Source: Candidatus Poribacteria bacterium (lineage in GTDB: Bacteria > Poribacteria > WGA-4E > GCA-2687025). From it: a DNA stretch of 64,000 nt. Location: positions 3,872,001 through 3,936,000 of the forward strand of contig OY762492.1 in the NCBI GenBank assembly GCA_963665845.2, given 5' to 3'. The notes beneath the pieces are model-generated. The model had not been told where the DNA came from. It did no database searches and saw nothing but the letters and a program-made list of their open reading frames with translations. The translations under genes and the position numbers were made by a program. Below, piece after piece: positions 18,442 through 40,714 of the stretch (positions within the stretch are counted from its first letter, which is position 1; every line of letters begins with the position of its first letter).

Positions 18442-18460
18442 GAGAATGAACGCGATCAAA
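18418..18460 (+). repeat. Left copy of degenerate 43-bp direct repeat bounding the paralog array
   Basis: gacgagattttaaacaaaggataagagaatgaacgcgatcaaa versus 40713-40755 gatgaggttctaaacaaaggacaagcgcatggatccgatcaaa; 34/43 identical, ungapped (hand count). Confidence 0.75.
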
Positions 18461-37975: not shown

Positions 37976-40714
37976 ATGAACTTGATCAAAACGCTCCGCC
38001 AATGGACGACGCGTCCGATTCAAACCGCAAAGGGTATTCGCATGATGTTCGCACAGAAAAAGACCGCCTCTCTGCTTGGCATGTTGGCGCTGTTCGTCTG
38101 CCTCAACTCCGTTCTTCCGATGGAAGCCGCCGCGCAACTTCAAGAGCTTCGCGCGAATTACTTCTACACCCACGAGACGATCGACGTTCCGGATGTCAAT
38201 TTTTTAGCGTTGACGGCGAGCAGCGATTTTGAGGATTACGCCGGGTACACGCGGAACGCCGACGGCAAAGAGGTCGCTTTCACGCTCATGGACGGCGTCT
38301 TCAAAACCTACGATTTCCCCGGCTCGCAGAAAACCCATTTCTACGCGCTGGGGAATGATGGTACCGCCGCCGGCCACTACGAGGACAGCGAAGGGCAGTT
38401 TCACGGGATCATTCTCGAAAATGGGGAGTTTCGGGAATACAATTTTCCGGGTTCCGTCGAAACGGAGATCTACGGCATCAGCGACGCGACAGGAGCCTTG
38501 ACCGGCAATTTCACAGACGCTGACGGCATTCGCCGCGGCTTCACAGGGGACGAGATCATTGAGTTCCCTGGCGCTGTGGAAACGTTTGCCGATTTTATCA
38601 ACTCAAGCGGCGGCATGGTTGGGAGCTACATTGACGCTGACGGGCTGTATCACTCTTATCAGCGGACCCCAGGTGGGATTTTTATCAATCTCCGATCTCC
38701 AGGGCCGCTGGAATACATGTTTGTGCAGGGCATCAACGACGCATGGACTGTTATTGTGCGAGCCAAAGCGTTCGGCCGCGTTCCGCAAACCTTTGTCGGC
38801 ACATTTCAAGACGGACTGATAAGATTTGAATTTCCGGGCGCCGTTTTCACGGAGGGCTGGAACATCAATCAGGACGGGTCTATCGTCGGGCATTACGACA
38901 CCGCCGACGGCCGCCGACACGGGTTCATCTCAAGACCCATACCAGGCACCCCCGCCGAACCCGTAGAGTACCCCGCCGTCCCCGGCTATACTTTTGAGAG
39001 CATTGATGTGCCGGGCGTGGATTACTTAGCGGTGACAGCAAGTTCCGATTTTGAGGATTACGCAGGAAACACGTTGAGCTCCGACGGTCAAAAAATGGTC
39101 GGCTTTACGCTCATGGACGGCGTTTTCAAAACGTACGATTTTCCTGGATCAAAGAACACGTACTTCTATGCGCTCGGCAATGATGGAAGAGCAGCCGGAC
39201 ATTACGAGGATAGCGGCGGGCAGTTCCACGGGATCATTCTCGAAAATGGCGAGCTGCGGCAATTCAATTATCCCGGCGCCGTTCAAACAGAGATTTACGG
39301 CATCAGCGACTCAACAGGCGACCTGACAGGCAATTTCATTGACGCCGACGGCGTTCGCAAGGGATTCACAGGCGGGCGATTCCCGATCGTTGAGTTCCCC
39401 AAGGCGGTGGAAACATATGCCGAGTTCATGAACGGGCAAGGCAGTGTGGTCGGCAGCTATGTGGACGCTATGGGGCTGCGCCATGCCTATCTGCGCAACC
39501 AGTTTCGCCTCTTTGTATCTTTCGTGCATCCAGAAGCGGCAAAACTGGAGGTCTTTTCTTTGAGCGGTCTCAACGATGCGCGGGTTGCCGTTATCCGATC
39601 GAAACTGAAGGATGATGTCTCGCGCACTTATGTCGGCACATTCATACACGGACTGAACGAATTGCGCGTCCCCGGCAGCGTCGGCACAGAGGGCTGGAAT
39701 ATCAATCAGGACGGCTCTGTCGTCGGACACTATGATTCACCCGATGGACGCCGACACGGGTTCATCGCCCGACCCGCCGCCAAGGAAGTGAGCGATCGTT
39801 ACGACAATGCTTACACCGTCGCGTTGATGAAGGGTCTCAACATGATCTCGGTTCCGCTGAAGCCGCCGGCGCCGATGAACGCAAAGGCGCTCGCGGGGTT
39901 GACAGGCTCCACAACCGTGATCAAACTGGACGAGGCAAAGCAGCGTTTCGTCGGATGGACGCCTGGCGCTCCTAACGACGGCTTCGACATCGAAGGCGGA
40001 AAAGGGTATATCGTCAATGTGCCGACAGCGCGCCATTTTGCCTTCGCCGGCGCGGCATGGACCGATCCTGTCGATACGGCGCAGGGCGCGCCTCCTCTCT
40101 TCACCGAAAATATCCAGAGCGCATGGGCGTTCGTTGTGAGCGGACATCTGGAAGGCAAGCGCGCCTTGGAAGGCTATAAGGTACTCGTCCGCAACCTCAG
40201 AACAAACGAAACGATTGCGGCTCCAGTACAGGACGGTTACTTCGCCGCCGCGACGGCCGACCTGTCCCGCCGAAGCGTTGTCGAAGCTGGGGACGCCATG
40301 GATCTGCAGGTCGTCGGTCCGGACGGGAATATCGAATCGCAAACCTTCCGCTTCGACGTGACTTCAGAGCATCTCGCCAACGCCGTTCTGCCCGTTACGC
40401 TGTACGGCATCGGCATGCCGTCGCAGAGTCGGCTTCTGCAGAATTATCCGAACCCGTTCAACCCTGAAACCTGGATTCCGTACCAGCTGGCGGAAGACAG
40501 CGACGTCTCGATTGAGATATACGACGCTTCTGGACGACTGATTCGCTCCCTGTCGCTCGGCCATCAACCCGCGGGCTTTTACAACAGCCGCGGCAGAGCC
40601 GCCTATTGGGACGGGCGCAACGCGGTCGGGGAGCAGGTTGCCAGCGGCGTCTACTTTTACCATCTGAAAACGCCCACATTCCGCCAAACGCGGCGGCTTC
40701 TGATTCTGAAATGA
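37976..40714 (+). CDS. Array gene A7: 2 modules plus constant C-terminal region
   Basis: ORF 37958-40714 (918 aa). Confidence 0.88.
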   Translation: MNLIKTLRQWTTRPIQTAKGIRMMFAQKKTASLLGMLALFVCLNSVLPMEAAAQLQELRANYFYTHETIDVPDVNFLALTASSDFEDYAGYTRNADGKEVAFTLMDGVFKTYDFPGSQKTHFYALGNDGTAAGHYEDSEGQFHGIILENGEFREYNFPGSVETEIYGISDATGALTGNFTDADGIRRGFTGDEIIEFPGAVETFADFINSSGGMVGSYIDADGLYHSYQRTPGGIFINLRSPGPLEYMFVQGINDAWTVIVRAKAFGRVPQTFVGTFQDGLIRFEFPGAVFTEGWNINQDGSIVGHYDTADGRRHGFISRPIPGTPAEPVEYPAVPGYTFESIDVPGVDYLAVTASSDFEDYAGNTLSSDGQKMVGFTLMDGVFKTYDFPGSKNTYFYALGNDGRAAGHYEDSGGQFHGIILENGELRQFNYPGAVQTEIYGISDSTGDLTGNFIDADGVRKGFTGGRFPIVEFPKAVETYAEFMNGQGSVVGSYVDAMGLRHAYLRNQFRLFVSFVHPEAAKLEVFSLSGLNDARVAVIRSKLKDDVSRTYVGTFIHGLNELRVPGSVGTEGWNINQDGSVVGHYDSPDGRRHGFIARPAAKEVSDRYDNAYTVALMKGLNMISVPLKPPAPMNAKALAGLTGSTTVIKLDEAKQRFVGWTPGAPNDGFDIEGGKGYIVNVPTARHFAFAGAAWTDPVDTAQGAPPLFTENIQSAWAFVVSGHLEGKRALEGYKVLVRNLRTNETIAAPVQDGYFAAATADLSRRSVVEAGDAMDLQVVGPDGNIESQTFRFDVTSEHLANAVLPVTLYGIGMPSQSRLLQNYPNPFNPETWIPYQLAEDSDVSIEIYDASGRLIRSLSLGHQPAGFYNSRGRAAYWDGRNAVGEQVASGVYFYHLKTPTFRQTRRLLILK

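What the first reader, a model, noticed from the sequence alone, without database searches (positions are those of the whole stretch)
18446..40714. Seven-gene, 18-module array of secreted variable/constant proteins: a candidate diversifying surface repertoire
Seen in the sequence: seven intact co-directional paralogs. Each has a signal peptide, then n copies of a ~270-aa module (n = 2,2,4,2,5,1,2), then a ~300-aa nearly invariant C-terminal region ending RRLLILK. All six internal junctions have exactly 7 nt between the stop and the next ORF ATG, and no copy is frameshifted. The module has short internal periodicity (YDFPGS..T..xxGI(S/N)D.G..xGxY.D..G..HGF) reminiscent of HAF-type propeller repeats. 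Inference: the variable-binder plus constant-anchor layout, with copy-number variation at both gene and module level, resembles an adhesin/receptor repertoire expanding by unequal recombination. I do not recognise it as a described system.
Basis: partly seen in the sequence, partly recalled or inferred. Interest (0 to 1): 0.88.

Follow-up and report, generated by a model that had tools for sequence, protein, structure and literature searches.

The report
Shuffled propeller surface-protein array, Poribacteria
Seven neighbouring genes of a Poribacteria bacterium carry 18 copies of a domain predicted to fold as a six-bladed propeller on a shared export-type tail; they are likely surface-displayed binding proteins whose old, conserved propeller types were likely reshuffled by recombination and passed between lineages, not a fast-mutating evasion repertoire.

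Summary
The array is real: seven intact genes, 18 modules (50-77% identical), a 302-aa tail (86-97%). Named relatives are Candidatus Poribacteria. The module is a predicted six-bladed HAF-like beta-propeller with no close solved relative. The tail is a stalk plus a type IX (T9SS) type A sorting domain, and SprA-, PorV- and PorU-like genes are in the genome (SprA-like in 150 of 151 phylum genomes). The family is in 138 of 176 Poribacteria genomes. A sister species has two genes at this site, two other genera none. The modules are not recent duplicates: 15 of 18 match other genomes better than their neighbours, and orthologues are under purifying selection (dN/dS 0.13). Tails and blades 1-3 are homogenised within the array; blades 4-5 keep old type identity; g3 and g5 join module pairs that stand alone elsewhere. 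Best reading: an old, recombination-shuffled, probably horizontally shared repertoire of exported binders, ligand unknown. The scan noted this family before on other DNA; the mosaic history and the export machinery are what this report adds.

The parts
14866..18441 (+). Left flank: planctomycete cytochrome c / DUF1549 / DUF1553 gene; directly followed by DUF1501 in relatives without the array
18397..18460 (+). Left copy of a ~60-nt junction element: last codons of DUF1553, ribosome site and first codons of g1, which resemble the start of DUF1501
18446..21166 (+). g1: signal peptide (by inspection), modules 18623-19447 and 19448-20257, stalk plus T9SS-type tail 20258-21166; orthologue of the second gene at this site in G001 (93% and 92%)
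21174..23888 (+). g2: likely start 21192; modules 21351-22169 and 22170-22979; tail 22980-23888, 97% identical to the g1 tail (dS 0.12) although the modules before it differ (dS 0.65)
23896..28275 (+). g3: four modules (24085-24906, 24907-25728, 25729-26553, 26554-27366), two pairs that occur in other combinations elsewhere; tail 27367-28275
28283..30988 (+). g4: modules 28460-29275 and 29276-30079; tail 30080-30988; the same pair is the front half of a four-module gene in L116
30996..36101 (+). g5: five modules (31113-31901, 31902-32744, 32745-33557, 33558-34379, 34380-35192): a sister pair m1/m2, a pair that is a two-module gene in many genomes, and a type that is usually a one-module gene; tail 35193-36101
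36109..37950 (+). g6: one module 36226-37041 (modelled: six-bladed propeller), stalk and sorting domain 37042-37950; orthologue of the first gene at this site in G001 (83-84%)
37958..40714 (+). g7: modules 38165-38986 and 38987-39805; tail 39806-40714
40715..40755 (+). Right copy of the junction element: decayed copy of the DUF1553 3' end, ribosome site and DUF1501 start (longer and with its stop kept in G001)
40741..42207 (+). Right flank: DUF1501 gene, 97% identical in G001

Best explanation
The seven genes encode proteins that are likely exported by a type IX-like route and likely act as multivalent surface binders, each module predicted to fold as a six-bladed propeller, and the array was likely assembled from old propeller types by recombination in conserved segments after a likely horizontal acquisition. 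Steps: (1) Sec export by the N-terminal signal (read by eye; inferred). (2) The C-terminal domain is a T9SS type A signal (shown by profile); recognition by the SprA/PorV-like translocon and removal or anchoring by a PorU-like C25 peptidase are inferred from Bacteroidota, the genes being present (shown). (3) One to five propellers on proline-rich linkers give avidity; a ring of aromatic and polar residues placed on one face by blade topology is the likely binding site, and blades 4-5 likely set the type (inferred). My guess for the ligand is host matrix glycan or glycoprotein (untested). (4) The founder entered between DUF1553 and DUF1501, duplicating ~60 nt of their junction, and all gene starts derive from that element, so the array is likely co-transcribed with the operon (repeat shown; co-transcription inferred). 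(5) Crossovers and conversion in the tail, blade 6-linker and blades 1-3 change gene and module number and homogenise those parts, while selection keeps blades 4-5 (pattern shown; mechanism inferred).
For: Fold: 24 strands in six groups, pLDDT 80.5 alone and about 90 with a 91-row alignment; best matches are propellers of many functions at 18% identity or less. Tail: TIGR04183 over cut-off in 4 of 4 genes scanned. Machinery: SprA-like 2225 aa (E 1.5e-53), 2 PorV/PorQ-family barrels over cut-off, 2 PorU-like C25 proteins; SprA-like in 150 of 151 phylum genomes. History: tails form one clade per species; nearest DNA neighbour lies in the array for blades 1-3 in 12 of 18 modules but for blades 4-5 in 1 of 18; the two G001 tails have dS 0.175, under the 0.32-0.34 of three flanking orthologues, though their modules are of different types; g3 and g5 share a junction linker found in 0 of 84 two-module genes; module order at the site differs in G001. 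Transfer: modules 84-88% identical to those of genomes whose topoisomerase I is 54-59% identical; present in 1 of 7 other genomes of the own family. Binder over enzyme: the 18 inferred ring positions give 18 different signatures in 18 modules, with dN/dS 0.09 within types.
Against: No ligand or function evidence; lectins, a lyase, sensors and designed proteins score alike in fold searches (TM about 0.5-0.67). The ring was placed from strand topology, not coordinates. One arginine (97%) and a lysine (94%) are nearly invariant over 333 modules and could be catalytic. SprA and PorU scores stay under the curated cut-offs, and GldM was found in 0 of 5 genomes with a silent control. The blade 1-3 homogenisation is not seen in pooled four-fold sites of 884 within-genome pairs of other genomes (0.521 against 0.501). 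Most window tails differ by dS 0.27-0.44, about the species split, so homogenisation is episodic. Silent-site support for transfer is modest: 0.42-0.55 against 0.54-0.56 in random cross-genome pairs.
Confidence: 0.55

Rival explanations
1. The modules are secreted enzymes (for example propeller glycoside hydrolases, lyases or esterases) that act on sponge matrix polymers; types differ in substrate.
For: The common type has a conserved Glu/Asp/His/Arg/Lys set at inferred channel positions; Vgb lyase and sialidases are among the fold hits and the Vgb profile gives weak hits (E 5.5e-10 to 1.6e-5, far under cut-off); the array sits in a DUF1553-DUF1501 operon.
Against: The acidic candidates are not invariant (62%, 77%, 90% of 333) and change together in whole conserved types; invariant columns in the module are mostly Gly, Thr, Pro and turn residues; five tandem catalytic domains of one fold in one chain are less usual than tandem binders (own knowledge).
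Confidence: 0.17
2. An antigenic-variation or phage/immune-evasion locus, kept diverse by an arms race and switched or rearranged within populations.
For: Gene and module number differ between species; a contig of run X6 joins 18465 to 23962, which may mean a strain whose first gene is g3-like; mosaic modules.
Against: dN/dS 0.13 over 75 orthologous pairs, 0.19 in top-face loops, no site above 0.69; no silent cassettes, 7 of 7 genes intact; no reverse transcriptase match in the 90% complete genome; identical listed pieces in three samples of one study; types kept at 83-88% across families.
Confidence: 0.12
3. Structural or shielding surface coat: the propellers form a protein layer or spacer with no specific ligand, and types persist by drift plus folding constraint.
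For: The same stalk and tail carry WD40 and other repeat proteins in this genome (11 other ORFs share the stalk), so the layout is a general display platform.
Against: Type-specific blades 4-5 and ring residues are strongly conserved between species while differing between types (dN/dS 0.03 in g1m1 blades 4-5); copy number runs from 1 to 20 matches per genome, and 38 of 176 genomes have no match.
Confidence: 0.12
4. Assembly chimera or collapsed mixture of strains.
For: No listed read or contig spans the whole array.
Against: Longest exact repeat 151 nt; both outer junctions bridged by contigs without differences; same flanks and architecture in G001 and similar arrays in many genomes.
Confidence: 0.02

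Closest known systems
T9SS type A CTD cargo proteins of Bacteroidota (TIGR04183/PF18962), for example PorZ (PDB 5m11) and the gingipain/HagA adhesins
   Same: Signal peptide plus Ig-like C-terminal sorting domain; SprA-, PorV- and PorU-like genes in the genome; PorZ is the top Foldseek hit for the whole g6 model by domain order only (E 1.3e-8, TM 0.15); adhesin-domain rearrangement and allelic exchange are reported for P. gingivalis (PMC5266723, abstract).
   Different: Other phylum: a 2023 review calls CTD proteins restricted to Bacteroidota (PMC10202324, passage). PF18962 stays under cut-off in 7 of 7; no GldM match; an extra ~205-aa stalk with no family; payload is an uncharacterised propeller.
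Poribacterial repeat proteins with a TIGR04183 tail (Kamke et al. 2014, PMC3909097)
   Same: Same phylum, same tail, repeat-propeller payloads.
   Different: The passages read name WD40 and other eukaryote-like repeats, not this module (0 hits for 'HAF' or 'propeller' in the main text; Table S9 not read), and state that Por structural genes were not found; here they are found.
HAF-repeat extracellular propellers (TIGR02913; DUF3466/PF11949)
   Same: Blade motif; g5 and g7 pass the TIGR02913 cut-off; language-model neighbours include a cluster with 44% DUF3466 members.
   Different: g1 and g6 fall under the cut-off; blades are strongly differentiated; no function is given in the 3 papers listed (listing only).
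Staphylococcus aureus lpl tandem paralogue cluster (Tsuru and Kobayashi 2008, PMC2568036, abstract)
   Same: Tandem surface-protein paralogues reshuffled by homologous recombination at conserved segments, with incongruent trees for gene parts.
   Different: Here recombination also changes the number of whole domains per gene, types are shared across families, and there is no sequence homology.
Beta-propeller lectins (PHL/PLL, AofleA) and six-bladed PknD/Pizza6 propellers
   Same: Fold class.
   Different: 10-18% identity, rmsd 5-8 A, seven blades in PHL/PLL (recalled); no lectin site motif was tested.

Membership tests
T9SS type A cargo | C-terminal type A sorting domain (TIGR04183 over cut-off) | tested here: met
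   31.9-33.8 bits against cut-off 23 in 4 of 4 genes scanned; PF18962 20-25 bits, under cut-off 27, in 7 of 7
T9SS type A cargo | N-terminal Sec signal peptide | tested here: inconclusive
   Basic start, hydrophobic core and AxA-Q site seen by eye in 7 of 7; no predictor was run
T9SS type A cargo | SprA/Sov translocon in the genome | tested here: inconclusive
   2225-aa protein, TIGR04189 181.6 bits (cut-off 200, E 1.5e-53), PF14349 over cut-off; match in 150 of 151 phylum genomes, 0 over cut-off
T9SS type A cargo | PorV-family shuttle barrel | tested here: met
   NF033709 over cut-off for 2 of 4 candidate barrels; the narrower PorV and PorQ models stay under cut-off
T9SS type A cargo | PorU sortase | tested here: inconclusive
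   Two ~2000-aa C25 peptidases, NF033707 about 320 bits against cut-off 420
T9SS type A cargo | PorLM motor and PorKN ring | tested here: inconclusive
   GldM model: 0 of 5 genomes, and 0 of 14 controls, so absence is not shown; PorK, PorL, PorN not searched
T9SS type A cargo | CTD-dependent export and cleavage | not testable with these tools
   Needs proteomics or heterologous tests; the phylum is uncultured (own knowledge)
HAF-repeat protein (TIGR02913) | Whole-protein score over cut-off 22.65 | tested here: inconclusive
   g5 38.0 and g7 23.4 pass; g1 18.6 and g6 13.3 do not
HAF-repeat protein (TIGR02913) | Beta-propeller of ~45-aa blades | tested here: met
   Predicted six four-stranded blades
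Antigenic-variation cassette locus (vls/vlhA type; definition recalled) | Silent donor cassettes beside one expression site | tested here: not met
   7 of 7 genes intact; the module profile finds no other copy or fragment among 34,889 ORFs of the genome
Antigenic-variation cassette locus (vls/vlhA type; definition recalled) | Positive selection on variable segments | tested here: not met
   dN/dS 0.09-0.19 in 7 of 7 site classes plus 0.13 overall, 75 pairs; counting method only
Diversity-generating retroelement target | Reverse transcriptase in the genome | tested here: not met
   PF00078: 0 matches in G000 (90% complete), 3 of 14 controls ring
Beta-propeller lectin | Carbohydrate binding at defined blade sites | not testable with these tools
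   Only fold-level hits
Propeller enzyme (sialidase, Vgb, GH) | Invariant catalytic residue set | tested here: inconclusive
   One Arg 97% and one Lys 94%; acidic candidates 62-90% of 333 modules; no structure-based site comparison

The most novel reading that the evidence does not exclude
Sponge-dwelling Poribacteria of different families share one horizontally exchanged library of propeller binding types. Each lineage plugs them, as blade 4-5 payloads, into its own homogenised scaffold and export tail, and ships them out through a phylum-wide type IX-like translocon (SprA, PorV, PorU) that lacks the Bacteroidota GldM motor. The set of types a strain carries would help decide which host matrix it can colonise.
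Probability: 0.25. Interest if true: 0.8.

Novelty: new variant of a known kind. Interest (0 to 1): 0.5.

Why it matters
Poribacteria are dominant sponge symbionts (PMC3909097, abstract start), and how they attach to or recognise the host is open. This family gives a defined, expressible set of candidate binders with natural type variation, so host or substrate recognition can be tested domain by domain. The SprA/PorV/PorU-like genes answer, at the level of sequence, the question left in 2014 of how TIGR04183-tailed proteins leave these cells, and extend type IX-like export beyond the Bacteroidota range stated in a 2023 review. The array is also a clean case of parts of one domain having different histories. 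It is not a new kind of system: tandem surface paralogues shuffled at conserved segments are known, and the scan met this family twice before.

Tried and rejected
Pfam gives no family for the module or the stalk; PDB sequence searches give none for the module (only FlgD hits to the tail); the 120 listed homologues carry no Pfam domain, and the 7 with a name are hypothetical Poribacteria proteins. The Atlas gave only unnamed leads under 0.9 for the stalk. The run-length test for conversion tracts (5 of 153 pairs at the minimum p) is confounded by conserved sites and is not used as evidence. The AU test of one clade did not finish. The last structure search of the two-domain model had not finished when I stopped, so the stalk has no fold assignment. 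Promoter and terminator scans were at or under chance (7 against 6.7; 16 against 24.4). RNA run X7 has contigs of a related strain over g3m1, g3m2, g4m2 and the flanks, but DNA carry-over is not excluded, so transcription is not shown. The X6 joint 18465-23962 rests on one contig with 66 letters on the short side and could reflect a G001-like leader, not loss of g1-g2. Low depth over g1-g2 in X5 was not used. I first took 0.75 as the saturation baseline for silent sites, but random cross-genome pairs sit at 0.54-0.56, which weakens that argument. fdhD/fdhF were read on the wrong strand; those rows were dropped and corrected. Wilcoxon p-values use non-independent pairs and are not relied on. 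Podell et al. 2019 (ISME J) is not held and may already discuss secretion in this phylum. No complex was predicted.
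Full report
Observation. The seven ORFs, their lengths, the module counts 2,2,4,2,5,1,2 and the six 7-nt gaps are as stated. Modules are 50-77% identical (mean 62%), tails 86-97% (mean 90%). The likely starts of g2-g7 lie 18 nt further on, because only the second ATG is kept in the sister species G001. 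The longest exact repeat in the array is 151 nt. Contigs of run X1 bridge the DUF1553-g1 junction (15622-18498) and the g7-DUF1501 junction (40676-41400) without differences, and 24 of 24 long pieces listed for three samples of one study are identical to the window; one of these samples may be the source of the assembly, and no piece spans the array.

Organism and context. Of 69 loci returned for the g6 module, 67 are titled Poribacteria and 2 uncultured bacterium (the best 80 of 303 matches were kept). The array lies between a DUF1553 cytochrome gene and DUF1501. In G003 and G005 (same family, other genera) these two genes are adjacent; in G001 (same genus, flanks 93% and 97% identical) two array genes with three modules lie between them. 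About 60 nt around the DUF1553 stop, the ribosome site and the DUF1501 start occur on both sides of the array, and each internal gene start resembles that element. I infer one insertion that duplicated the junction and gave the founder the operon's translation start.

Anatomy. The module has no Pfam family and partial TIGR02913 HAF scores. AlphaFold gives 24 strands in six blades (pLDDT 80.5 from one sequence; about 90 over the module with 91 rows) followed by a two-part stalk and an Ig-like tail. Fold searches return propellers of unrelated function: CylK Z 19.6 (rmsd 3.9, 243 aligned), TolB 16.5, integrin heads about 15; Pizza6, Vgb lyase, PHL/PLL and AofleA lectins, PknD; identity 18% or less. 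The fold gives no function. The last ~95 aa pass TIGR04183 in 4 of 4 genes scanned. A profile of it finds 52 ORFs in the genome, among them two more tandem arrays of 6 and 9 genes whose sampled members are WD40 proteins, and the stalk recurs in 11 other large ORFs. The 'constant' part is therefore a general export platform of this organism.

Export route. Kamke et al. 2014 saw TIGR04183 tails on poribacterial repeat proteins and found no Por structural genes (PMC3909097, two passages read; supplements not read). G000 encodes a 2225-aa SprA-like protein, PorV/PorQ-family barrels (2 of 4 candidates over cut-off) and two PorU-like C25 peptidases, one followed by a PorV-like gene. A SprA-like match occurs in 150 of 151 phylum genomes, none over the curated cut-off. 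GldM was not found in 5 genomes, with a silent control. By the model reviewed in PMC10202324 (12 passages read), cargo would be passed by SprA and PorV and then released or anchored by PorU; for Poribacteria this is inference.

Distribution. The module is found in 45 of 61 relatives (1-20 matches each) and 138 of 176 phylum genomes: families f2 10 of 11, f6 25 of 29, f8 101 of 112, own family 1 of 7 besides G000, seven other families 0 of 16. Among 168 complete genes in the fetched loci, 64 have one module, 91 two, 5 three, 7 four and 1 five (sample biased by the query). This array is large but not out of range.

History. Fifteen of 18 modules match another genome better than any neighbour, one ties, two match a neighbour best (333 modules). 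In a 38-row IQ-TREE (18 window modules plus 20 outside rows picked as best hits or from G001), 11 window modules sit in starred clades with outside rows, 0% of 200 bootstrap trees hold the window modules together, and only g5m1/g5m2 form a starred in-array pair. The seven tails, in contrast, form one clade (support 0.94) beside the two G001 tails; over 145 genes the nearest tail is in the same genome for 63, the nearest last module for 8. Tail dS is 0.12-0.44 within the array and 0.175 within G001, against 0.32-0.34 for three flanking orthologues and 0.48 for a fourth. Inside the module, variation concentrates in blades 4-5 (entropy 1.4-1.7 against 0.6-0.9 bits). Blades 1-3 have their nearest DNA neighbour in the array in 12 of 18 cases, blades 4-5 in 1 of 18; four-fold sites differ less in blades 1-3 among window paralogues (0.424 against 0.533) and more among orthologues (0.272 against 0.185). 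That reversal is what conversion among paralogues predicts. It is not seen in pooled within-genome pairs of other genomes (0.521 against 0.501), though the neighbour count leans the same way there (49 against 19 of 304). g3 and g5 join pairs that stand alone or in other combinations elsewhere and share a junction linker absent from 84 two-module genes. G001 has the g6 type first and the g1 type second, while leaders stay with position.

Selection. In 75 reciprocal-best cross-genome pairs dN/dS is 0.13; 0.19 in top-face loops; 0.09 at 18 inferred pocket positions; the highest site is 0.69 (counting method). The three G000/G001 pairs give 0.11, 0.11 and 0.32. All 18 window modules have different pocket signatures; 31 of 75 orthologous pairs share theirs exactly. 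Related strains in runs X5 and X6 (about 92-97% identical pieces) carry the same g3 and g4 types, and X5 also g5 and g6 types. This is a kept repertoire, not hypervariation.

Transfer. g5m4 is 83-88% identical to modules in dozens of genomes of three other families, and six modules have their best blade 4-5 match outside the genus in one array of L116 (76-86% over the module), while topoisomerase I is 57-58% identical to three such genomes, 59% to that of L116 and 63% to a same-family genus. Module GC3 is 0.67, between the flanks (0.72-0.76) and other genomes' modules (0.46). Silent-site support is modest. I put horizontal acquisition by this genus at about 0.7.

Function. Modular tandem propellers on flexible linkers, a conserved aromatic/polar ring that changes by type, and an export tail fit multivalent binders best (0.55). 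An enzyme remains possible (0.17) because one Arg and one Lys are nearly invariant. The ligand is unknown; host matrix glycans are a guess from the sponge setting (X6 is labelled sponge metagenome).

Literature and novelty. Seven searches listed no paper on this family or on SprA/PorV in Poribacteria; I saw listings and abstract starts only, and Podell et al. 2019 is not held. PMC8546597 (passages) did not bear on the family. The closest process is the S. aureus lpl cluster (PMC2568036, abstract); the closest cargo class is T9SS type A adhesins, also rearranged in P. gingivalis (PMC5266723, abstract). Two earlier notes of this scan describe the same family in other genomes; my reading was recorded before I saw them. 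Verdict: real, a new variant of a known kind, interest 0.5.

Noticed in passing
G000:C1:935094-941771 (L135), C1:1875256-1876557 (L137), C1:3740834-3741820 (L140), C1:1293086-1299307 (L138), C1:1858816-1865773 (L139): SprA-like translocon, PorV/PorQ-family barrels and two PorU-like C25 peptidases; SprA-like in 150 of 151 phylum genomes. A 2014 paper reported no Por structural genes in Poribacteria. GldM not found.
   Followed up: partly
G000:C1:949686-963938 and C1:1881487-1902675: Two further tandem arrays (6 and 9 genes, 760-900 aa) of proteins with the same export tail; the three members scanned with Pfam are WD40 proteins. The first lies 8 kb from the SprA-like gene, the second 5 kb from a PorV-like gene.
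   Followed up: partly
window 4728-10826 (-): 2032-aa WD40 multi-propeller protein that shares the stalk and the export tail with the array genes.
   Followed up: partly
window 13396-14067 and 14075-14749 (+): Two tandem ~224-aa paralogues (57% identical) with signal-like starts and a shared short C-terminal motif, no Pfam or NCBIfam family; both kept in G001 upstream of DUF1553.
   Followed up: no
L025, L027, L031, L033, L039: In five other genomes the array ends beside a PLP-dependent (PALP) gene about 31% identical to the one at window 42214-43380, often after a one-module gene; possibly the ancestral site in family f8.
   Followed up: no
window 49031-59328 (+): Cluster of further surface-type genes: two PD40 proteins, an NHL protein, two M28 peptidases with weak export tails, an M6 peptidase and a TIG/Ig protein, followed by a GAF kinase and sigma-54 regulator.
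   Followed up: no
window about 12420-12550: Very high summed depth and many loose ends in all four runs laid suggest a short multicopy repeat in the gap between the oxidoreductase and the phosphatase gene.
   Followed up: no
window 43415-43927 and 43930-44712 (+): Two adjacent uncharacterised genes that share a ~130-aa domain (about 33% identical) and diverge fast from G001 (69% and 56%).
   Followed up: no
signal peptides of g1-g7: All seven predicted cleavage sites are followed by glutamine, like the Bacteroidetes Q-rule (PMC10653852, abstract start seen).
   Followed up: no
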